Shown here in pieces: positions 2,635 to 62,328 of a DNA stretch of 64,000 nt. Location: contig JBAZSZ010000003.1 of the NCBI GenBank assembly GCA_041662205.1, positions 9,772 through 73,771 on the forward strand, written 5' to 3'. The DNA comes from Minisyncoccota bacterium (GTDB lineage Bacteria; Patescibacteriota; Minisyncoccia; Phycocordibacterales; UBA9973). Below the pieces are notes generated by a model. It saw only the letters and a list, made by a program, of their open reading frames with translations. It searched no databases and had not been told where the DNA came from. The first letter of the stretch is position 1. Each line of letters starts with the position of its first letter. The position numbers and the translations under genes were made by a program.

Positions 2635-2637
2635 TTT

Positions 2638-2685
2638 TCCCCCACCCCAGGGATAGGGGAATTCCCCTATCCCTGGGGTGGGGGA
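2638..2685. repeat. Perfect GC-rich palindrome cccccaccccagggatagggg-aatt-cccctatccctggggtggggg (GAATTC core)
   Basis: Read directly from the sequence. Sits immediately after the stop codon of the SEDS gene. It is a sibling of the palindrome at 3554..3599. Confidence 0.9.
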
Positions 2686-2707
2686 AGCAAGGTTTTTAAA
2701 AAAATTT

Positions 2708-3571
2708 ATGACACAAATTATAGACGGAAAAAAAATAAGAGATCAGATTTTAGAGAAAGTGAAAACGGAAGTAAGTGCGATACCTTTCAAGCCAGTTTTT
2801 TGTGACGTATTAGTCGGTAATGATTCAGCTTCTCTTCAATATGTCCAAATGAAAGGGCGGATGGCAGAATCTGTGGGTATAAGTTTTCATAAAGCAGAGT
2901 TTCCTGCTTCAATTTCAACTGAAGATTTAATAAAAGAAATAAAAGTTTTAAATAAAATTGAAAATATGTGTGGGATTATCATTCAGCTTCCTTTGCCTTC
3001 ACATTTGGACAAGCAAGCGGTCTTAGATGCTATTGATCCGAGGCTTGATGTCGATTGCCTTGGCACTATTGCTAGTGAAAAATTTTACAGTGGTGAAAGT
3101 GCTTTAGGTTTTCCGACGGCTTTAGCATGTATGGCATTATTAGATTCCATAAATTTATCTTTAGAAAATAAAAAGATTGTTGTTTTAGGGCAGGGGTTGT
3201 TGGTAGGAAAGCCAGTTACCGCTTTACTCAAATTTCGAGAGTTGGATCCAAATGTGATTAGAAGTAAGACTGAAAATAAAGAAGAACTCATCAAACAGGC
3301 AGATGTTATAATTTCAGGCATGGGCAAAGGTAAATATATTACGGGTGGCATGATCAAGTTAGGAGCGATCTTGATAGATGCTGGTACTTCTGAAGATAGT
3401 GGTTCATTAAATGAACGAACAAGTATTGTCGGTGATGTTGATTTTGAATCTGTGAAAGATGTTGCGGGGTATGTTTCGCCTGTGCCGGGAGGTGTAGGTC
3501 CAGTAACTGTCGCAATGCTTTTGAATAATGTGTTAACAGTAGCAAAAAGTTTTCCCCGAAACCAGGTATAG
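2708..3571 (+). CDS. folD: Bifunctional methylene-THF dehydrogenase / methenyl-THF cyclohydrolase FolD
   Basis: N-terminus MTQIIDGKKI is canonical FolD, followed by a Rossmann fold (VVLGQGLLVGKPV) and a C-terminal PVPGGVGPVT. I start at the ATG at 2708 rather than the GTG at 2678, which lies inside the palindrome. Confidence 0.85.
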   Translation: MTQIIDGKKIRDQILEKVKTEVSAIPFKPVFCDVLVGNDSASLQYVQMKGRMAESVGISFHKAEFPASISTEDLIKEIKVLNKIENMCGIIIQLPLPSHLDKQAVLDAIDPRLDVDCLGTIASEKFYSGESALGFPTALACMALLDSINLSLENKKIVVLGQGLLVGKPVTALLKFRELDPNVIRSKTENKEELIKQADVIISGMGKGKYITGGMIKLGAILIDAGTSEDSGSLNERTSIVGDVDFESVKDVAGYVSPVPGGVGPVTVAMLLNNVLTVAKSFPRNQV

Positions 3572-3599
3572 GGGAATTCCCCTATACCTGGTTTCGGGG
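3554..3599. repeat. Perfect palindrome ccccgaaaccaggtatagggg-aatt-cccctatacctggtttcgggg; its left arm encodes the FolD C-terminus and stop
   Basis: Read directly. Shares the core ataggggaattcccctat with the element at 2638..2685. Confidence 0.9.
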
Positions 3600-3614
3600 A
3601 AGGAATCAAATATT

Positions 3615-9179: not shown

Positions 9180-9219
9180 AAATTTCGCAAGGGGAGTGTT
9201 TGCGAAATTATTTTAAAAT

Positions 9220-9843
9220 ATGAAAACATTGCCAATAAACCTCGATACTTTCGGTTTCGTAGAGAGAGAAAAAAATAATTCTGGTAAATATGTTCTTAAT
9301 CGTTGTGGTAGAGATTTTTTATATTATTCTCTCAATTATTTTCATCCAGATAAATACAATTCATTTGCAAAAAACCCTCAATTTATTCAGAAAAATAATA
9401 TTTTTGGTTTATCAACACCCCCATGGTTGGCTTTTGCTTTGTTGCAGTTTATTTACGTTCCTAAAGAATTGAAAAAAGAAAAATTAGAGTTATTTATAAA
9501 CGATAAATTGATTAACTCTGTGACTAATTTTTATCGAGTTTTATGGAAGCCTTCAAGAACAGATGTAGGGAAAAGAATAAAGGAGGTAGAATTCTCGATA
9601 GATAAAGGTTTTGTAGTTGGGATTGATTTATCTCTTTTTCTTTTTGGAATTTTTGATCATGTGATGTTTGTTTATGGTTATGACGAAGATAATTTTTATG
9701 TTTTCGATACACGAAAAATTAATAAATTAGAATATGAAAAAATAACAGAAGATAATAGATATATTATGAGATTACCTAAAGACATAGTCAGAAAAAGATG
9801 GTCTTTCTTTGGGAGAGTTTGGATTGTAAAAAGAATAGTATAG
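9220..9843 (+). CDS. Papain-fold cysteine peptidase-like protein (C39-like / BtrH_N-type)
   Basis: Candidate catalytic Cys (NRCGRDFLYYSL) and His (DHVMFVYGYDEDNFYVFD), spaced as in C39-like peptidases. Assigned by motif only. Confidence 0.4.
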   Translation: MKTLPINLDTFGFVEREKNNSGKYVLNRCGRDFLYYSLNYFHPDKYNSFAKNPQFIQKNNIFGLSTPPWLAFALLQFIYVPKELKKEKLELFINDKLINSVTNFYRVLWKPSRTDVGKRIKEVEFSIDKGFVVGIDLSLFLFGIFDHVMFVYGYDEDNFYVFDTRKINKLEYEKITEDNRYIMRLPKDIVRKRWSFFGRVWIVKRIV

Positions 9844-9856
9844 TAGTGTTAATCAT

Positions 9857-9876
9857 ATCTACGCTATAGCGTAGAT
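9857..9876. repeat. Perfect 20-bp palindrome atctacgctatagcgtagat (copy 1)
   Basis: Read directly. An identical copy lies at 10271..10290. Together they bracket ORF 9903..10265. Confidence 0.9.
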
Positions 9877-9902
9877 TAAGGAATGGTTATATAATCTATA
9901 TT

Positions 9903-10265
9903 ATGGCTGGAAGAAAATTAAAATATAAAGGTATGTCGGTGAATGTGTTTGGCTTACCAAGTTTTGGTAATTCTCATAAGGAAAATAAAATACTAAAAAT
10001 ACCAAAACGACGATATCTTCAATCCTTTATTTCTGATTTTAAAAAAGATTCACCTAAAAATTTGCTTCTAATTTATGATATTCCTGAAGGAAGAAAGAAG
10101 GAGAGGGATTGGTTTCGTCGTCAGCTAAAAAATTTTGACTTTATTATGATCCAAAGAAGTGTTTGGGTCGGACCATCACCTTTGCCAGTCAATTTTCTTG
10201 CCTACTTAAAAAGAATTGGATTACAAAAAGAATTTAAGACATTTAAACTAGCTAAGCCATATTAA
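9903..10265 (+). CDS. Small protein with a Cas2/VapD-like motif (also resembles the PaaX central-domain pattern); no CRISPR context
   Basis: Segment LLLIYDIPEGRKKERDWFRRQLKNFDFIMIQRSVWVGP matches the Cas2 core (hhhYDI..+R+.+h.+.L..aG.R.Q.SVa). A 55-aa basic N-terminal extension precedes it. Flanked by identical palindromes. Confidence 0.4.
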   Translation: MAGRKLKYKGMSVNVFGLPSFGNSHKENKILKIPKRRYLQSFISDFKKDSPKNLLLIYDIPEGRKKERDWFRRQLKNFDFIMIQRSVWVGPSPLPVNFLAYLKRIGLQKEFKTFKLAKPY

Positions 10266-10270
10266 AATTA

Positions 10271-10290
10271 ATCTACGCTATAGCGTAGAT
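10271..10290. repeat. Perfect 20-bp palindrome atctacgctatagcgtagat (copy 2)
   Basis: Identical to 9857..9876. Starts 6 nt after the stop of ORF 9903..10265. Confidence 0.9.
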
Positions 10291-10340
10291 GCAATAAGTA
10301 ATCTATTTATTTTTTAACTTCTCTCTGTTATACTCTTTAC

Positions 10341-10613
10341 ATGAACATTAAAGACGTTGAAAACCTTGCCAGCCTTGCTAGAATTGAGCTAGGAGAAGAA
10401 GAAAAAAAGAACCTACTCTCCGATATGGAGAGTATTTTAGGTTACGTCAAACAGATTGAAGAAGTGAAAGCCGAAGACGTAGAACCGGAATATAAAGTTT
10501 ATAATGTTTGGCGAGAGGACGAAATAATTCCAAGAGAATTTTCAAGAGAAATTATCGCAGAACAATTTCCAGATGCGCAAGAAGGATTTTTGAAAGTTAA
10601 AAAGATTTTGTGA
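10341..10613 (+). CDS. gatC: Asp/Glu-tRNA amidotransferase subunit C
   Basis: 90 aa. Begins MNIKDVENLASLARIELGEEEKKNL, which is GatC-like. Immediately precedes gatA. Confidence 0.8.
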   Translation: MNIKDVENLASLARIELGEEEKKNLLSDMESILGYVKQIEEVKAEDVEPEYKVYNVWREDEIIPREFSREIIAEQFPDAQEGFLKVKKIL

Positions 10614-12924: not shown

Positions 12925-12980
12925 ACAAGTCGGCAAGTGACATGCCAAAATGTCTAATTGTCGAGTATAATGTATAATAT

Positions 12981-13053
12981 GTCGGCGTAGCTCAGTTAGT
13001 AGAGCACGGGACTCATAAGCCCGGGGTCGCAGGCGCACTCCCTGCCGCCGACA
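12981..13053 (+). tRNA. tRNA with CAT anticodon, three G:C pairs in the anticodon stem (initiator-like), atypical T-loop (cgcactc)
   Basis: Acceptor gtcggcg/cgccgac. D-arm tagctcagttagtagagca. Anticodon loop ctCATaa. T-stem gcagg/cctgc. Confidence 0.5.
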
Positions 13054-13149: not shown

Positions 13150-13158
13150 CAAATTAAA

Positions 13159-13187
13159 AATACCGTAGCTTCTGCTACGGTATTTTT
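13159..13187. terminator. Hairpin plus T-run directly after tRNA-Asp (bidirectional)
   Basis: aaaataccgtag-cttctg-ctacggtattttt. Confidence 0.5.
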
Positions 13188-13320
13188 AATTCTAGCGCGA
13201 TGTAAGCAAGCAAACTGCTTTGCTTGCGTCCGGCTTGAACAGGCGGAGCCGTGTCGCAAAGCGACAGGCGAGCCCGGGGAGGAAGTTCTTAGGAGCAAAG
13301 GCGACTTAGAAACTTGACCC

Positions 13321-20081: not shown

Positions 20082-20181
20082 ATATTTAATTTTTGCAAAA
20101 TAGCTCAAAATAAACTACTATATTCTAGTAGTTAGTTAAGTTTGCCGTTGTGGCTGTTTTGGTAGGTCGTTACGTTAGTTT

Positions 20182-20254
20182 GCCGTTGTAGCTCAGTTGG
20201 TAGAGCACGTCATTGGTAATGACGAGGTCATCGGTTCAATCCCGATCAACGGCT
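20182..20254 (+). tRNA. tRNA-Thr (GGT)
   Basis: Acceptor gccgttg/caacggc. Anticodon stem cgtca/tgacg with loop ttGGTaa. T-arm catcggttcaatcccgatg-like. Confidence 0.8.
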
Positions 20255-29219: not shown

Positions 29220-29270
29220 CTGGAATTCTTTCTGAATTTTTGATAAAGTGGGTTCGAACTAAAACGGTTT

Positions 29271-29343
29271 GCCATCCTAGCTCAGTTGGTAGAGCGCGGT
29301 CTTCGTAAGACTGAGGTCCCGAGTTCGATCCTCGGGGATGGCT
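29271..29343 (+). tRNA. tRNA-Thr (CGT)
   Basis: Acceptor gccatcc/ggatggc. Anticodon stem cggtc/gactg with loop ttCGTaa. T-arm ccgag-ttcgatc-ctcgg. Confidence 0.8.
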
Positions 29344-43741: not shown

Positions 43742-45512
43742 AAATACTATCTAGTAATTTTATAAACCAGTTTTTCTTTGTATTTTCCTTTTGTTCTATT
43801 TGATTTGTTGTAGGGATAGAATCAATGGCATTTATCACTGTAGCAGTATTTTCAAGTTTGTTATTTTTTATAATTTTTTTAGGAGCTTTCACCGCAATTT
43901 GATTTACTGTTGTAATTTTTGGCTTTTCAAACTTTTGCATTATTTGATTCCAAGTTTTACCAGATAATACAGAAGCAACATAAGAAGTTTCCCAGATTTT
44001 ATTATTTATATTGTCGTTTTTCGTTCCGCCATCGATGTCTTGTATTGTTGCCAGATAATCAAGTGGTGTGTCTTCATTTTTTTTCCAGTCTTCTATTTTC
44101 TCACCTAATGCGAGGATTCCTTCTATCGCCCAAGCAGTAGATGAAGCATTACCCCAGCCACCGTCTTCTTTTTGTTTTTGTTTTAAGAATTCTCTAGCTT
44201 TTACCAAACTTCCCATTACCTTTTCCCCTTCACCTGGTGAAGGGGAAAAGGTGGAGAGAGCCTCTATCGCTGCGCCTGTCATATCTACGGAATTATCCCA
44301 TGAACCATCTGCATTTTGTGCTTTTAGAACAAAAAGAATATCATCCTCTATCATTTTATCAGTTATTGTATAGCCTGCGTTTTGTAAAACAATTAAAGCA
44401 AATATGTCATCATTGTCTTCGTGGATATCTCCAAATTGTGTGCCATCAAAACTCTCTATAATTTTTTTAATGTAATTTAAACCACTCGTGTCGTATGGGT
44501 TCTGTCCTAGGGACATTAGGGCCATTGCGTGTCTTTCGTGATCTGTCAGAGATAGATTTTCTATTTTTATTTCTTTAAAATATTTAATCAATTTTGATAT
44601 TTGTTCTGGATAATTTGCCGATGCTAGTGCCATTGTTGTCCAATCAGTATACAAATCTTCGCCAAAAGATCCGTTTTCTTTTTGTTGTGACGCAAGAAAG
44701 TTGAAAGCCTTTTGTAAATCAAAAGAAAGTTTTGGTTTTGGAGCGATAGGTGCGACAAATATTCTACTCCCACCACTAGAACGTGAAACCACTGGCTCTG
44801 GAATGACAGCAGGTTCAGGGTTAGGCGCTGGTGGTGTTGTCACAGTTAGAGTTTCAGTTGGAAAGTAATAATCTTCTTTAATTCCAATATTATATGAACC
44901 AACACCTAATGGTGTAAAAATTGCTTGTCCATTTTCATCAACCGGTTGCACTTGAATTTCGGTTGGCGACCAAGGATCACTGGGATTTGGTTGCGTTGCT
45001 CCTATATTTACACTTGTTAAAGCCAGCCAGCTATTATTTTGATAATCATAATCTTGTGCGTTTATTGTTAAAATATCATTTGTATTTATTGAATTAGAAC
45101 TTAAAATTATTTTATGGTGTGGTCCAAAATAAAGATATACGCTTTCTACGCCAGTAAGAATTTTTTTATCTATTGCATCATAAGGATAAGAATTATTTAC
45201 CGTGTATTGCCAATTATCGCAACTGCTATCAATGCATTTTAAATAAAATCCCATACTGGAATATTGTAAATCAGTAATTGAAAAATTATCGCTTAAAGTA
45301 TCCGCATCCATTAATACTGAAAGAACACTATTAGCATCAACATCTTGTCCTTGTATTTGAATTGTTCCAGGTGTTTGAAGTGGAACAGCTCCGGAATAAA
45401 TAATATTGGCTTCGTTTCGTATTGTTAAATTAACATTTGCGGCTAAAACAACATTTTTCCCGACAAAAAACAACGTCACTAATAAAACTATTTTAATAAT
45501 TTTATTTTTCAT
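43728..45512 (-). CDS. Secreted surface protein: N-terminal DUF4430-like domain plus C-terminal prenyltransferase/squalene-cyclase-type alpha-alpha toroid repeats
   Basis: Repeated DGSW/DGGW..W..A motifs (ENGSFGEDLYTDWTTMALAS, DGSWDNSVDMTGAAIEAL, DGGWGNASSTAWAIEGILAL). The N-terminal WQYTVNN...VYLYFG segment is DUF4430-like. Confidence 0.6.
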   Translation of the reverse strand: MKNKIIKIVLLVTLFFVGKNVVLAANVNLTIRNEANIIYSGAVPLQTPGTIQIQGQDVDANSVLSVLMDADTLSDNFSITDLQYSSMGFYLKCIDSSCDNWQYTVNNSYPYDAIDKKILTGVESVYLYFGPHHKIILSSNSINTNDILTINAQDYDYQNNSWLALTSVNIGATQPNPSDPWSPTEIQVQPVDENGQAIFTPLGVGSYNIGIKEDYYFPTETLTVTTPPAPNPEPAVIPEPVVSRSSGGSRIFVAPIAPKPKLSFDLQKAFNFLASQQKENGSFGEDLYTDWTTMALASANYPEQISKLIKYFKEIKIENLSLTDHERHAMALMSLGQNPYDTSGLNYIKKIIESFDGTQFGDIHEDNDDIFALIVLQNAGYTITDKMIEDDILFVLKAQNADGSWDNSVDMTGAAIEALSTFSPSPGEGEKVMGSLVKAREFLKQKQKEDGGWGNASSTAWAIEGILALGEKIEDWKKNEDTPLDYLATIQDIDGGTKNDNINNKIWETSYVASVLSGKTWNQIMQKFEKPKITTVNQIAVKAPKKIIKNNKLENTATVINAIDSIPTTNQIEQKENTKKNWFIKLLDSIFSIF

Positions 45513-59433: not shown

Positions 59434-62328
59434 ATGAAAGAATACGATCATAAGAAAATTGAAAAAAAGTGGCAGATTCTTTGGGAGAAAAAAGGAATTT
59501 ATCACGCCCAAAACAAATCTAAAAAAAAGAAATATTATAGTTTGATTGAATTTCCTTATCCATCGGGGGATGGTATGCACGTGGGACATATCAGAAGTAA
59601 TACCGCAATGGATATCATTTCCCGCAAGCGTAGAATGGAAGGCTTTAATGTGCTTTACCCCATAGGTTGGGATGCTTTCGGTTTACCTACAGAAAATTAT
59701 GCCATAAAGACAGGCAAACAACCTGCTGTTATCACAAAAAAGAATACAGATACTTTTAGGAGGCAGCTTCAGTCTATTGGTTTTTCTTTTGATTGGTCTA
59801 GAGAAATAAATACCACAGATCCAAAATATTATAAATGGACACAATGGATATTTTTACAATTTTTGAAAAAAGGTTTGGCTTATAAAGCGAAAATGACCAT
59901 TAATTGGTGTCCGAAAGATAAAATTGGCTTGGCAAATGAAGAAGTGATAAATGGATGTTGTGAACGTTGCGGAACTACTGTAGAACAAAGAGAAAAAGAA
60001 CAGTGGATGCTCGCGATTACTAAATACGCCGATAGACTCTATGAAGACTTAGATGATGTTGATTATCTTCCACAAATAAAACTCGGGCAGAGAAATTGGA
60101 TAGGGAAATCCGAAGGCGCAGAAATCGAATTTAAAATTTCTTCCCCTATCCCAGGGATGGGGGAAAAGGTGAAAGTTTTTACCACGCGTCCAGATACTAT
60201 TTTTGGGGCGACATATCTTGTGCTTGCGCCCGAGCACCAATTAGTCCAAAAATTAAAATCACAAATTCCAAATTGGAAAGAGGTGGAGAAATATATTGAG
60301 GAAACAAAAAGTAAAACTGAGATAGATAGAAAAATTGAAGACAAAATAAAAACTGGAGTTGAACTGAAAGGAATTAAGGCAATAAATCCGGCAACAAAAG
60401 AAGAAATTTCTGTGTGGATTGCAGATTATGTACTTTCAACATATGGCACAGGAGCGATAATGGCAGTTCCCGCACATGATGAGAGAGATTTTGCATTTGC
60501 AAAGAAGTATAATTTAGAAATCAAGAATGTTATTGAACCAATTTTTGTTAATAATCCAAAAGAAGATTTACACTTTGTTGAACGAGAAGCTATACATGCA
60601 ATAGTAAAACATTGGACAGAAGAAAAATATTTAGCTCTAAAGTGGAAAAAAGTCGACTGGCTAACTTTTGTAACTGGAGGGGTAGAATCTGGAGAAAATA
60701 CTAAAGATGCTGCAATACGAGAGATTCAAGAAGAAACTGGATATCAAAATATAAAATTAATTAAAGAGTTACCACGTTCACATAGTAAGTTTTATCATGA
60801 GCCCAAAAAAGAAAATCGTTTTGCTCATTTTTCTAACTTTTATTTTCAACTCATTAATGATGAACAAAAAGAATTATCTCAAGAAGAAAAAGAAATACAT
60901 GAATTAAGATGGATGACTATAGAAGATTTGGAAAAAGAGATGACAATAGGTGGTGCTTTACGAGATTTAGAAAATTTACAAGGTAAAGAAAAATTTTATC
61001 TGGGCAATGGTATAGTAACTAATTCTGGGAGATTTGATGGTCAGGATTCAGAAAAAGCTAAAAAGGAAATTGTAAAATTTGTCGGGGGGAAAATAAAAAC
61101 TACTTTTAAGCTTCGTGATTGGATTTTTTCTAGACAGCGATATTGGGGTGAACCTATTCCGGTAATTCATTGTGAAGATTGTGGAATGGTCCCTGTGCCG
61201 GAAAAAGATTTACCAGTAGAATTACCAAAAGTAAAAAATTATCAGCCGACGGATAGCGGGGAATCACCGCTCGCAAATATTGCAAAATGGGTGAACGTAA
61301 AATGTCCAAAGTGTAAAGGCAAAGCCAATAGGGAAACAGACACGATGCCAAACTGGGCTGGTTCTAGCTGGTATTATCTTCGCTATACAGATCCAAAAAA
61401 TAAAAAAGAATTTGCCAATAAAAAAAATCTAAAATATTGGACACCAGTGGATTGGTACAATGGAGGCAATGAACACACCACACTTCATCTTTTATATTCT
61501 CGTTTTTGGCATAAATTTTTGTACGATTTAAAATTAGTGCCGACAAATGAACCATATATGAAACGTACTTCACACGGTATGATTTTAGGTGGGGGAGGTG
61601 TAAAAATGTCAAAGTCTCTTGGTAATGTAATAAATCCAGACGATATAGTAAAAACATATGGTGCAGATACATTACGCCTTTATGAGATGTTTATGGGGCC
61701 TTTCAATCAATCCGTCGCTTGGAGTGAAGAAGCGATTATTGGGCCGAGAAGATTTTTGGAAAGGGTGTGGAAGATAGGGAAACAAGTTGCCGAGCCTGAT
61801 ACTTTTACTCAGTCGCTCGGTCCCTCGCTTCGCTCAGCCACTCCTTCGCAAAAGCATACAGGCTCGGCAATGTCTGTTTCAAAACTACTCAATAAAACTA
61901 TCAAGAAAGTAACCGAAGATATCGAAGAAATGCGTTTTAATACGGCAGTTTCGACGATGATGATCTTGGTAAATGAAATGGATAAAAACGAAGTTAGTAT
62001 AAAAGATTTTAAAAAATTCTTACAGATTCTTGCTCCATTTGCTCCACACATTACTGAAGAACTTTGGGGTGTATTGGGTGAGAAAAAAACAATTCATCTT
62101 TCAGAGTGGCCTAAGTGGGATAAAAATTTTATTCAAGATGAAGAGATAAAAATAGCAGTACAGATAAATGGGAAAGTTAAGGCAGAAATAATGATATTGC
62201 TTGATGAAGACGAAGAGTCAATAAAGAAAAAAGTCTTTGCCAATGAAACAGTTTTGAAACAAATAGCTGGCAAAGAAATAAAAAAAGTGTTTTATGTAAA
62301 AAATAGACTTTTAAACATAGTTTTGTAG
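59434..62328 (+). CDS. leuS: Leucyl-tRNA synthetase with an in-frame Nudix-hydrolase domain insertion after the editing domain
   Basis: HIGH (HVGH), editing-domain motifs, KMSKS. Between ...AHDERDFAFAKKYNLEIK and ...TNSGRFDG lies an insert of about 150 aa containing a perfect Nudix box, GGVESGENTKDAAIREIQEETGY. Total length 964 aa. Confidence 0.9.
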   Translation: MKEYDHKKIEKKWQILWEKKGIYHAQNKSKKKKYYSLIEFPYPSGDGMHVGHIRSNTAMDIISRKRRMEGFNVLYPIGWDAFGLPTENYAIKTGKQPAVITKKNTDTFRRQLQSIGFSFDWSREINTTDPKYYKWTQWIFLQFLKKGLAYKAKMTINWCPKDKIGLANEEVINGCCERCGTTVEQREKEQWMLAITKYADRLYEDLDDVDYLPQIKLGQRNWIGKSEGAEIEFKISSPIPGMGEKVKVFTTRPDTIFGATYLVLAPEHQLVQKLKSQIPNWKEVEKYIEETKSKTEIDRKIEDKIKTGVELKGIKAINPATKEEISVWIADYVLSTYGTGAIMAVPAHDERDFAFAKKYNLEIKNVIEPIFVNNPKEDLHFVEREAIHAIVKHWTEEKYLALKWKKVDWLTFVTGGVESGENTKDAAIREIQEETGYQNIKLIKELPRSHSKFYHEPKKENRFAHFSNFYFQLINDEQKELSQEEKEIHELRWMTIEDLEKEMTIGGALRDLENLQGKEKFYLGNGIVTNSGRFDGQDSEKAKKEIVKFVGGKIKTTFKLRDWIFSRQRYWGEPIPVIHCEDCGMVPVPEKDLPVELPKVKNYQPTDSGESPLANIAKWVNVKCPKCKGKANRETDTMPNWAGSSWYYLRYTDPKNKKEFANKKNLKYWTPVDWYNGGNEHTTLHLLYSRFWHKFLYDLKLVPTNEPYMKRTSHGMILGGGGVKMSKSLGNVINPDDIVKTYGADTLRLYEMFMGPFNQSVAWSEEAIIGPRRFLERVWKIGKQVAEPDTFTQSLGPSLRSATPSQKHTGSAMSVSKLLNKTIKKVTEDIEEMRFNTAVSTMMILVNEMDKNEVSIKDFKKFLQILAPFAPHITEELWGVLGEKKTIHLSEWPKWDKNFIQDEEIKIAVQINGKVKAEIMILLDEDEESIKKKVFANETVLKQIAGKEIKKVFYVKNRLLNIVL

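What the first reader, a model, noticed from the sequence alone, without database searches (positions are those of the whole stretch)
9220..10290. Solo Cas2/VapD-like small gene exactly bracketed by identical 20-bp perfect palindromes, beside a papain-like peptidase
ORF 9903..10265 contains LLLIYDIPEGRKKERDWFRRQLKNFDFIMIQRSVWVGP, which fits the Cas2/VapD endoribonuclease core pattern. There is no cas1, no CRISPR array and no other cas gene in 64 kb. It is flanked, 45 nt upstream and 6 nt downstream, by two identical copies of the perfect palindrome ATCTACGCTATAGCGTAGAT; this sequence occurs nowhere else in the window. Perfect identity of the two copies argues for recent duplication or mobility (a mini-cassette) or a dedicated protein-binding site. 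Upstream is a papain-fold (C39/BtrH_N-like) peptidase. This could be a VapD-like toxin module or a degenerate Cas2 relic being domesticated.
Basis: partly seen in the sequence, partly recalled or inferred. Interest (0 to 1): 0.6.

Follow-up and report, generated by a model that had tools for sequence, protein, structure and literature searches.

The report
Cas2-fold protein flanked by its own sites
A small, highly conserved Cas2-shaped protein of Paceibacteria (candidate phyla radiation) has its gene bracketed by a palindrome that changes together with the protein across many lineages, so the protein most likely binds that palindrome and controls its own promoter; it is not a CRISPR relic, a toxin or a mobile cassette.

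Summary
ATCTACGCTATAGCGTAGAT occurs only at 9857-9876 and 10271-10290, bracketing a 120-aa ORF. The ORF matches Pfam PaaX_M (Cas2-like domain, 9e-13), and a good model (pLDDT 86) has the Cas2 fold.

It is not a recent duplication or a mobile cassette. The protein belongs to a large Paceibacteria family (about 1950 homologues). In loci chosen by protein alone, the palindrome lies upstream in 63/70 and downstream in 46/70.

The upstream copy has a fixed geometry: site, 13-14 nt, TATAAT, 6-9 nt, ATG. It therefore covers the -35 position of a leaderless promoter.

Protein and site co-vary. Residue 62 is E/D with a TATA centre (48 of 53 typed sites) and non-acidic (mostly H) with CATG (29 of 30, never TATA), with roughly 17 apparent switches on a tree. 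An N-terminal basic motif tracks the outer arm bases. Remote copies in the same genomes match the local protein type (18/21).

Best reading: a homodimeric, sequence-specific DNA binder lacking the usual winged helix, which regulates itself and acts at a few other sites. Those other sites sit mostly at gene 3' ends or inside genes, and their role is unresolved. The papain-like neighbour is a variable, unrelated gene.

The parts
9857..9876 (.). Upstream copy of the palindrome (18-bp core TCTACGC-TATA-GCGTAGA at 9858-9875). Proposed operator covering the -35 position of the gene's own promoter.
   Evidence: Exact match, unique pair in the window. Conserved in relatives with the same spacing to the -10 box: start at -43..-47 from the ATG in 72/83 loci, and a 13-14 nt gap to a TATAAT-like box in 63/79.
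9890..9895 (+). TATAAT -10 box, 7 nt before the ATG. This implies a leaderless mRNA. There is no recognisable -35 hexamer and no TGn extension.
   Evidence: Read directly from the sequence. The same box at the same distance is seen across relatives. The generic promoter scan does not call it, because the palindrome occupies the -35 position.
9903..10265 (+). 120-aa Cas2-fold protein (PaaX_M family, called CAS2L here). Residues 1-50 form an N-terminal arm with the YKGxSVNxFGLP motif and basic K35-R36-R37. Residues 54-115 form the beta-alpha-beta-beta-alpha-beta domain.
   Evidence: Pfam PaaX_M 9e-13, Cas2 2.8e-6. AlphaFold2 pLDDT 85.9, above 94 for residues 45-120. Foldseek top hits are Cas2 and VapD. 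1954 homologues.
10086..10088 (+). Codon of Glu62 (YDIPE), the N-cap of helix alpha1. This residue co-varies with the central 4 bp of the palindrome.
   Evidence: E/D with TATA 48, with CATG 1. Non-acidic with CATG 29, with TATA 0. Normalised mutual information 0.91 against 0.49 for the next column. About 17-18 parsimony changes of each character on a neighbour-joining tree.
10005..10013 (+). Codons of K35-R36-R37 (PKRRY), the N-terminal basic motif that co-varies with the outer arm bases (positions +/-8) of the palindrome.
   Evidence: x[KR][KR]xY goes with TCT..AGA arms. [KR]Rx[FL]Y goes with TAT/TTT..ATA/AAA arms. This includes paralogue pairs within one genome.
10271..10290 (.). Downstream copy of the palindrome, 5 nt after the stop codon. 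Proposed second binding site (auxiliary operator, roadblock or insulator).
   Evidence: Exact match. Present 0-28 nt after the stop in most relatives: 28/32 at >=70% identity, 46/70 overall with a strict pattern. Its distance to the gatC -10 box varies from 35 to 41 nt, so it is not a fixed element of the gatC promoter.

Best explanation
The 120-aa gene encodes a small homodimeric protein with a Cas2-type fold, a stripped-down relative of PaaX-like regulators. The proposal is that it recognises the 18-20 bp palindrome TCTACGC-YATR-GCGTAGA as duplex DNA.

Each monomer is proposed to read one half-site. Glu62 sits at the start of helix alpha1, next to the conserved Asp59, which in Cas2 dimers lies at the two-fold axis. 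Glu62 would read the T:A pair two positions from the centre. The N-terminal basic arm (K35-R36-R37) would read the outer G:C pair at position 8.

The upstream copy covers about -27 to -44 of a promoter that has a good -10 box, no -35 hexamer, and starts transcription at or next to the ATG. Occupancy of that site must therefore set the gene's own transcription. Autorepression is the default guess; activation is not excluded.

The downstream copy abuts the stop codon. It is proposed to be a second binding site, acting either as a loop partner about 414 bp away or as a roadblock that insulates gatCAB from this promoter.

The same protein acts in trans on a handful of further copies elsewhere in the genome.

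Shown by comparison: conservation of both sites, the fixed promoter geometry, protein-site covariation, and remote sites following the protein type. Inferred: dimer formation, DNA rather than RNA as the ligand, the sign of regulation, and the role of the downstream and remote sites.
For: Fold and family.

Family size and conservation.

Both palindromes are conserved around the gene while the flanking DNA diverges. In loci chosen by protein alone, 63/70 have the upstream site and 46/70 the downstream site.

Fixed geometry (site, 13-14 nt, TATAAT, 6-9 nt, ATG).

Covariation of residue 62 with the site centre: 48:1 against 0:29, nMI 0.91, about 17 co-occurring switches. The same rule holds in distant TM+wHTH relatives (L017, L044, L114: E/D with TATA; L111: Q with CATG). 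Paralogues in one genome form orthogonal pairs (L037, L099).

The outer arm co-varies with the N-terminal basic motif.

The change from E to H matches a change from an adenine N6 donor to a guanine O6/N7 acceptor. This is an inference from standard protein-DNA recognition chemistry.

The centre is almost always self-complementary: TATA 70, CATG 58, against TATG 7, CATA 5. This fits one residue per monomer reading symmetric half-sites of a duplex.

Alternative half-sites (TCAGC for TACGC) occur in mixed and symmetric combinations. These break hairpin pairing but still fit half-site recognition.

Stem mismatches show no G.U-over-A.C bias (9 against 10).

Remote sites match the type predicted from the local protein in 18/21 cases. 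Within one assembly, pairs of sites share their centre in 59/76 cases, against 0.42 expected.

More distant relatives carry different palindromes at the same places (L200, L205, L208, L206, L207).
Against: The window protein lacks the recognition helix and wing of the winged helix that its roughly 160-aa relatives have. A Cas2-fold domain reading DNA sequence has no precedent that I could find.

Many sites are extended to perfect palindromes of 26-50 bp, with arms that differ between species but stay complementary. This is what selection on a hairpin would give, although template-switch 'perfection' of palindromes could also produce it.

Non-flanking intergenic sites lie mostly after stop codons. 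Convergent junctions outnumber divergent ones 14 to 4. That is not where promoter operators are expected.

24 sites lie inside genes (rsmI, comF, folA, recR, mnmA), always in the frame LR[HY][GS]VD.

The Cas2 catalytic-type Asp59 is nearly invariant, so nuclease activity cannot be excluded.

No binding experiment exists. The number of independent switches rests on a neighbour-joining tree of a short protein and may be overestimated.
Confidence: 0.55

Rival explanations
1. RNA-level element. The palindrome acts as a hairpin in transcripts, and the Cas2-fold protein binds or cleaves it, as a Cas6- or VapD-like endoribonuclease or as a protein-dependent terminator or 3'-end protector. Copies at gene ends would define transcript ends. 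The copy upstream of the gene would stop read-through from the neighbouring gene.
For: Cas2 and VapD relatives are ribonucleases (named in the PDB hits). Asp59 is conserved. Extended perfect stems with species-specific complementary arms are common. Most non-flanking sites lie 0-20 nt after stop codons or between convergent genes. In the ZnR560 arrays the site sits 7-10 nt before the next ATG, in intergenic gaps of about 35 nt.
Against: No U-tract follows the hairpin on the sense strand. The upstream copy keeps a fixed distance to the -10 box and would lie outside the gene's own leaderless mRNA. The centre is almost always self-complementary, which a loop does not need. One residue switch tracks both Y and R together. 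Mixed half-sites disrupt the stem. There is no G.U bias. No Rfam family matches.
Confidence: 0.2
2. Chromosome landmark. The protein is a site-specific DNA binder whose main job is not transcription but chromosome organisation or segregation, in the manner of parS/ParB, Noc or MatP. It would have a few conserved sites per genome, placed where they do least harm, and its own gene would be marked by sites.
For: There are only a few sites per genome (3-5 seen per assembly, a lower bound because the scan was truncated). Sites occupy conserved positions inside housekeeping genes, and the encoded peptide changes with the site type (LRYSVD against LRHGVD). Promoter regions are avoided. The site is conserved across Nomura-, Kaiser-, Taylor-, Sungii- and Levyibacteria.
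Against: The strict promoter geometry at its own gene, and at the 207-aa gene of a sister genome, points to transcriptional control. No ParA-like partner is seen next to the gene. The chromosomal distribution relative to the origin could not be examined.
Confidence: 0.12
3. Mobile or recombination cassette. The palindromes are ends or recombination sites (REP/RAYT-like, IS200-like or attC-like), and the Cas2-fold protein is the nuclease that moves them or the genes between them.
For: The gene is flanked by identical palindromes, and dispersed solo copies exist. Arrays look like site-gene-site-gene-site with variable genes between the sites (L062: htpX-site-207aa-site-CAS2L-site-gatC; L010: htpX-site-CAS2L-site-218aa-site-gatC). 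The Asp is conserved.
Against: The gene is single-copy with conserved synteny. It is absent from viral contigs and plasmids. Copy number is very low. The site sequence is conserved across a whole class instead of being lineage-specific. No transposase or integrase lies nearby. Intragenic sites sit at orthologous positions in different genomes.
Confidence: 0.08
4. VapD-like toxin, or a decaying solo Cas2, with two chance or generic terminator hairpins.
For: Marginal Cas2 HMM hits and fold similarity to VapD HP0315.
Against: There is strong purifying selection over about 1950 homologues. There is no antitoxin-like partner and the neighbours vary. There is no cas or CRISPR context. The palindrome pair is not chance and co-varies with the protein.
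Confidence: 0.03

Closest known systems
PaaX-family transcriptional repressors (E. coli PaaX, PDB 8A39; Pfam PaaX_M, PF20803)
   Same: The best HMM match is the PaaX central Cas2-like domain. The relatives of about 160-190 aa have an N-terminal winged helix followed by this domain. JGI names several family members 'DNA-binding transcriptional regulator PaaX'. The proposed function, binding a palindromic operator at a promoter, is the same in kind.
   Different: The window protein has lost the recognition helix and wing, about 40 residues. It has no PaaX C-terminal ligand domain. It keeps the Cas2-type YDIP motif, which E. coli PaaX lacks (from my recollection of the PaaX sequence, not tested here). 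The specificity-linked residue lies in the Cas2-like domain, not in a winged helix. There is no phenylacetate pathway context.
CRISPR-associated Cas2 (Pfam PF09827, TIGR01573)
   Same: It has the beta-alpha-beta-beta-alpha-beta fold, the conserved Asp at the end of beta1 and the QxSVW motif in beta2-beta3. Scores are just above the curated cut-offs. Cas2 dimers lay duplex DNA across their surface in Cas1-Cas2 complexes (established knowledge; such PDB entries are listed).
   Different: There is no cas1 and no array. It has an extra conserved 50-residue N-terminal arm. Sequence-specific association with a palindrome has not been described for Cas2.
VapD endoribonuclease toxins (HP0315, PDB 3UI3; C. 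jejuni VapD-VapW, 9KAN)
   Same: Fold similarity (Foldseek probability 0.97). Both are solo Cas2-like genes outside CRISPR loci.
   Different: There is no antitoxin partner. The gene has conserved housekeeping synteny and is absent from plasmids and viral contigs. The family is CPR-wide and highly conserved.
REP elements with their RAYT transposase gene (REPtrons)
   Same: A single-copy gene is flanked by copies of a palindromic element that also occurs dispersed at gene 3' ends.
   Different: The protein fold is unrelated (Cas2-like, not HUH). There are only a few copies per genome instead of hundreds. The element is conserved across a class of bacteria, and intragenic in-frame copies exist.
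Two-operator autoregulatory loops (for example lac O1-O2, 401 bp apart)
   Same: An operator at the promoter is paired with an identical or similar site about 400 bp downstream (414 bp here).
   Different: Here the second site lies just past the stop codon of the regulator's own gene. Tetramerisation and looping are untested.

Membership tests
CRISPR-associated Cas2 | Cas2 ferredoxin-like fold with a conserved Asp at the end of beta1 | tested here: met
   AlphaFold2 model with pLDDT above 94 over residues 45-120 and beta-alpha-beta-beta-alpha-beta topology. Foldseek top hits are Cas2 chains with probability 0.95-0.99. D59 is invariant in A1 and at least 90% conserved in A3.
CRISPR-associated Cas2 | HMM score above the curated cut-off | tested here: inconclusive
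   PF09827 27.8 bits against 23.8. TIGR01573 24.7 against 24.5. These are marginal, and PaaX_M outscores them at 48.6 bits.
CRISPR-associated Cas2 | Encoded next to cas1 and/or a CRISPR array | tested here: not met
   No CRISPR-like repeat array in 64 kb. No cas gene among the called neighbours in L001-L006.
PaaX-family regulator | PaaX central (Cas2-like) domain | tested here: met
   PF20803 E 9e-13, 48.6 bits against a cut-off of 24.
PaaX-family regulator | N-terminal winged helix-turn-helix DNA-binding domain | tested here: not met
   No HTH family hit. Alignment with relatives of about 160 aa shows about 40 residues missing (recognition helix and wing). Those relatives give weak wHTH hits at residues 31-80.
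PaaX-family regulator | C-terminal PaaX_C effector-binding domain | tested here: not met
   The protein ends at residue 120, right after the Cas2-like domain. TIGR02277 scores only 12.3 bits against a cut-off of 264.
PaaX-family regulator | Binds a palindromic operator overlapping a promoter | not testable with these tools
   Only indirect evidence: conserved site at -27..-44 of its own promoter and protein-site covariation.
VapD toxin-antitoxin module | Adjacent cognate antitoxin gene; mobile or plasmid context | tested here: not met
   The upstream neighbour varies (207-aa ORF, PhzF, LysE) and the downstream neighbour is gatC. No plasmid or viral relatives.
Intrinsic (rho-independent) terminator | GC-rich hairpin followed directly by a U-tract on the transcribed strand | tested here: not met
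   Neither copy is followed by a T-run on the + strand. The scan calls only the - strand reading of the downstream copy. The sequence, and not merely the structure, is conserved and co-varies with the protein.
REP/RAYT (REPtron) | HUH tyrosine transposase gene flanked by REPs that are present in many copies | tested here: not met
   The protein is Cas2-fold. There are two copies in 64 kb and 3-5 seen per assembly.

The most novel reading that the evidence does not exclude
The Cas2-fold domain is itself a programmable, sequence-specific reader of a palindromic element, and possibly an enzyme acting on it. Together, protein and palindrome would form a genome-wide system in Paceibacteria that marks gene boundaries. 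It could work as a protein-dependent terminator or insulator, or as a hairpin-processing system analogous to Cas6/repeat or RAYT/REP. Specificity would be reset by single-residue changes (E62 to H). This would be a non-CRISPR use of the Cas2 fold that may resemble what Cas2 did before it joined Cas1.
Probability: 0.15. Interest if true: 0.85.

Novelty: new variant of a known kind. Interest (0 to 1): 0.65.

Why it matters
Cas2 is the most enigmatic core CRISPR protein. Its fold also appears in VapD toxins and in the middle of PaaX repressors, where it is regarded as a dimerisation module.

Here a minimal Cas2-fold protein has lost the classical winged helix, yet its cognate palindrome still co-varies with a residue in the Cas2-like domain and with an N-terminal arm. 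If binding is confirmed, three things follow:
- It would show that this fold can read nucleic-acid sequence.
- It would give a simple specificity code (E for T:A, H for C:G).
- It would provide one of the very few regulatory circuits that can be inferred for uncultivated CPR bacteria, including evidence for leaderless promoters.

The conserved in-frame copies inside rsmI, comF, folA and recR are unusual. They show selection on DNA sequence that overrides the protein sequence.

Tried and rejected
- A sequence search of the protein against PDB found nothing useful.
- The first AlphaFold2 run, with a shallow alignment of close homologues, gave a poor model (pLDDT 62). A deeper alignment fixed this.
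- Literature searches for PaaX with Cas2-like, with candidate phyla radiation, and with Cas2/winged helix found no description of this family.
- Rfam has no match to the palindrome region.
- The generic promoter scan misses the proposed promoter, because it requires a -35 hexamer.
- I tested whether the downstream site is a fixed element of the gatC promoter. Its spacing to TATACT varies from 35 to 41 nt, so this was rejected.
- I tested for RNA-type G.U tolerance in the stems and found no bias, though the numbers are small.
- I looked for a second PaaX_M paralogue and for the Cys-rich 'ZnR560' family in the window. Neither is present.
- The ZnR560 family, next to about 21 remote sites, has no Pfam assignment.
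- A profile search with the 207-aa family against PDB gave only spurious hits.
- Mobility was checked in viral contigs and plasmids, with no relatives found.
My ORF calling in fetched loci was crude (longest ORFs), so some 'intragenic' or 'distance' calls are approximate.
Full report
**Observation.** The sequence is as described. ATCTACGCTATAGCGTAGAT occurs at 9857-9876 and 10271-10290 and nowhere else in the 64 kb, even with three mismatches; none was expected in shuffles. The two copies bracket an ATG-initiated ORF, 9903..10265, of 120 aa. The neighbours are secD, secF, lemA, htpX and a 207-aa ORF upstream, and gatC and gatA downstream. The exact protein is on record from a Candidatus Paceibacterota MAG.

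**The protein.** Pfam gives PaaX_M, 'PaaX protein central Cas2-like domain' (E 9e-13), and CRISPR_Cas2 (E 2.8e-6, 27.8 bits against a cut-off of 23.8). NCBIfam cas2 is at threshold. With a deep alignment, AlphaFold2 gives pLDDT 85.9, above 94 for residues 45-120. The topology is beta1 (54-58), alpha1 (62-77), beta2, beta3, alpha2, beta4. Foldseek ranks Cas2 chains and VapD HP0315 first, at probability 0.95-0.99, with modest E-values as expected for a 70-residue domain. The first 50 residues are modelled with lower confidence and carry a conserved YKGxSVNxFGLP motif and a basic patch.

**Family and context.** The family is large and tightly conserved: 1954 hits, of which the best 120 are 73-100% identical, 110-130 aa long, and all from Paceibacteria/Nomurabacteria-type MAGs. 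At 50% clustering there are 1135 relatives. Most are 155-200 aa, with the Cas2-like domain at the C-terminus. Alignment shows that these longer forms have an N-terminal winged helix (weak wHTH HMM hits at residues 31-80). The 120-aa form lacks about 40 residues, namely the recognition helix and wing. In four close lineages the gene always sits directly upstream of gatC-gatA. The upstream neighbour varies: the 207-aa ORF, PhzF or LysE. There are no relatives in viral contigs or plasmids, no CRISPR-like array and no second family member in the window. This is a vertically inherited chromosomal gene. It is not a relic, a toxin module or a mobile cassette.

**The palindromes are conserved with the gene.** In the close lineages both copies are present while the surrounding intergenic DNA has diverged. 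I then fetched 80 metagenome loci chosen only by the protein. Among 71 unique proteins, a site of the form NNN[AC][CAG]GC-NATN-GC[GT][TG]NNN lies upstream in 63/70 and downstream in 46/70. For relatives at 70% identity or more the figures are 30/32 and 28/32. The downstream figure is an underestimate, because variant sites such as TTTACGCTATCGCGCATA escape the pattern. The upstream copy starts 43-47 nt before the ATG in 72/83 loci. A TATAAT-like box follows it after 13-14 nt in 63/79 loci, and the ATG follows that box after 6-9 nt in 65. In the window this reads site 9858-9875, TATAAT 9890-9895, ATG 9903. The geometry is that of a leaderless promoter whose -35 position is occupied by the palindrome. 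There is no -35 hexamer and no TGn extension. The downstream copy begins 0-28 nt after the stop, abutting it in 21/58 loci. Its distance to the gatC -10 box (TGnTATACT, also leaderless) varies from 35 to 41 nt, so it is tied to this gene and not to the gatC promoter.

**Protein and site co-vary.** The residue after YDIP (Glu62 in the window) predicts the central four bases.
- E/D: TATA 48, GATA 3, CATA 1, CATG 1.
- H, Q, Y, S, A, F, I or T: CATG 29, CATA 1, TATA 0.
- This column has normalised mutual information 0.91 with the centre, against 0.49 for the next best.
- On a neighbour-joining tree both characters need about 17-18 changes, and these coincide.

The tree of a short protein is noisy, so I take this only as 'many independent switches'. 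The rule extends to distant TM+wHTH+Cas2-like relatives that carry the same palindrome (E/D with TATA in L017, L044, L114; Q with CATG in L111). It also extends to paralogue pairs in one genome, which form orthogonal pairs (L037: YDIPD with TCTACGC-TATA, and YDIPH with TATACGC-CATG).

A second covariation links the N-terminal basic motif to the outer arms. x[KR][KR]xY goes with TCT..AGA, and [KR]Rx[FL]Y goes with TAT/TTT..ATA/AAA, again including paralogues. Still more distant relatives have different palindromes at the same positions. L200 has CAAGTGCAC-CATG-GTGCACTTG and L205 has AAGTAAGC-GATA-GCTTACTT, each up- and downstream. L208 has TCTACGATCGTAGA on both sides. L206 and L207 have other long palindromes. 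This is the pattern expected if each protein binds the element flanking its gene.

**Sites elsewhere.** Almost all were Patescibacteria, or contigs that carry Patescibacteria-type genes despite another label. Of 141 sites:
- About 40-50 flank family genes.
- About 21 adjoin a Cys-rich family of about 560 aa with no Pfam assignment, often between tandem paralogues and 7-10 nt before the ATG.
- 24 lie inside genes, at orthologous positions in rsmI, comF, folA, recR and mnmA, always in the frame LR[HY][GS]VD.
- The rest are intergenic: 31 tandem, 14 convergent and only 4 divergent, usually within 20 nt of a stop codon.

Within an assembly, sites share the same centre (59/76 pairs, against 0.42 expected). 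Remote sites match the type predicted from the local protein's residue 62 in 18/21 cases. Inside rsmI the encoded peptide itself changes (LRYSVD, LRHSVD, LRHGVD) with the site type. The nucleotide sequence is therefore what is selected. These facts identify the protein as the trans-acting partner of all copies. They also show that most remote copies are not classical promoter operators.

**DNA, RNA or mobility.** Five points favour duplex DNA read by a symmetric dimer.
1. The centre is self-complementary in 128 of 141 sites, although the search pattern allowed all four Y/R combinations. A hairpin loop has no such need.
2. A single residue tracks both the Y and the R together. In a duplex these are the same base pair seen in two half-sites.
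3. The alternative half-site TCAGC occurs in mixed and in symmetric sites, which breaks stem pairing.
4. Stem mismatches show no G.U bias.
5. The spacing to the -10 box is strict.

The E to H change fits a switch from accepting a hydrogen bond from adenine N6 to donating one to guanine O6/N7. Residue 62 follows Asp59, which in Cas2 dimers lies at the two-fold axis. Both points rest on established structural knowledge and were not tested here.

Three points count against duplex DNA: many sites are perfect palindromes of 26-50 bp with species-specific complementary arms, the sites prefer gene 3' ends, and the Cas2-type Asp is conserved. The hairpin is modest (-7 kcal/mol as DNA). It has no U-tract on the sense strand and no Rfam match. 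Long perfect palindromes are common in this genome anyway; a second family, TTCCCC..GGGGAA, is described below. Template-switch perfection of palindromes is therefore a plausible non-selective source. Mobility is disfavoured by the synteny, the single copy, and the absence from mobile-element collections. However, the site-gene-site-gene-site arrangements in L062 and L010 show that genes are gained and lost between sites.

**Most likely mechanism.** A homodimer binds the palindrome. The alpha1 N-termini sit at the dyad and the N-terminal arms reach positions +/-8. At its own gene, the upstream site at about -27 to -44 makes expression depend on occupancy, so the gene is autoregulated. The sign is unknown. 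Repression is the default, but a promoter with no -35 hexamer and no TGn extension could also be activator-dependent. The downstream site at the stop codon could loop with the upstream one (414 bp apart, comparable to lac O1-O2) or block read-through into gatCAB. In a sister genome the 207-aa gene has the same site-13 nt-TATAAT arrangement, so the set of controlled genes varies between genomes. The role of the 3'-end and intragenic copies remains open: roadblock or insulator, chromosome landmark, or an RNA-level function.

**The papain-like neighbour.** The 207-aa family (215 homologues, all 'hypothetical') has invariant C29 and H147 and nearly invariant D163. It gives recurrent sub-threshold hits to BtrH_N (19/41 members) and Peptidase_C39_2 (13/41). 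A papain-like fold is plausible. It is a variable neighbour, not a partner.

**Comparison and novelty.** The protein works most like a PaaX-type regulator but fails two of the three domain criteria for that family: it has no wHTH and no C-terminal domain. It has the Cas2 fold but not the Cas2 context. It resembles VapD in fold only. I found no description of this family or of sequence-specific recognition by a Cas2-like domain, though the searchable library is incomplete. I rate it a new variant of a known kind. It is supported by strong comparative evidence, but there is no experiment and the physiological role is unresolved.

Noticed in passing
window 2637-2686, 3552-3601, 44223-44247, 60141-60165: A second, unrelated palindrome family made of 25-nt units, TTCCCC-N13-GGGGAA. 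Two 50-nt perfect double units exactly bracket the folD gene (2678/2708..3571). Single units occur at 44.2 kb and 60.1 kb. It looks REP-like. A distant CAS2L relative (L200) has TTCCCC..GGGGAA around its own palindrome.
   Followed up: partly
L026, L038, L056, L093, L094, L103 and others (about 21 sites): A Cys-rich protein family of about 560 aa with no Pfam assignment (only a weak treble-clef zinc-finger hit), often in tandem paralogues. The palindrome sits in a gap of about 35 nt, 4-9 nt after one stop and 7-10 nt before the next ATG. The right arm plus T gives a -10-like TAGATT. The family is absent from this window.
   Followed up: partly
L032, L035, L043, L051, L063 (rsmI); L047, L066, L071, L085, L086, L115 (comF); L020, L029, L116 (folA); L068, L098 (recR); L053 (mnmA): The palindrome lies inside conserved genes at orthologous positions, always read as LR[HY][GS]VD with the rare codons CGC/GGC. 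The encoded residues change with the genome's site type.
   Followed up: partly
window 10318-10343 and the gatC loci in L007, L010, L016, L031, L061, L075: gatC has a conserved extended -10 box (TGnTATACT) 5-8 nt before its ATG and no Shine-Dalgarno sequence. As with the CAS2L gene, this suggests that leaderless mRNAs are common in these bacteria.
   Followed up: no
window 9182-9210: A different hairpin (AATTTCGCAA-N9-TTGCGAAATT) lies between htpX and the 207-aa ORF. The sister genome (L062 1112-1129) has a third copy of the CAS2L palindrome at this place, with the same site-13 nt-TATAAT geometry.
   Followed up: yes
L062 (htpX-site-207aa-site-CAS2L-site-gatC) and L010 (htpX-site-CAS2L-site-218aa-site-gatC): Variable genes are inserted between copies of the palindrome, on either side of the CAS2L gene. 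This gives a cassette-like array and may mark the sites as places where genes are gained and lost.
   Followed up: partly
window 12977-13041, 20178-20242, 29267-29331; 13152-13191: tRNA-like direct repeats (GTAGCTCAGTTGGTAGAGC...), and a perfect hairpin with 18-nt arms next to the first one. Not examined.
   Followed up: no
L133, L136, L096, L155, L171, L162, L166, L185, L196 and others: A recurrent asymmetric site variant, TCTCAGC..GCGTAGA (AC to CA in one half). It is nearly always oriented with the variant half distal to the gene start. A fully symmetric ATCAGCCATGGCTGAT occurs downstream in L067. This suggests two half-site types.
   Followed up: partly
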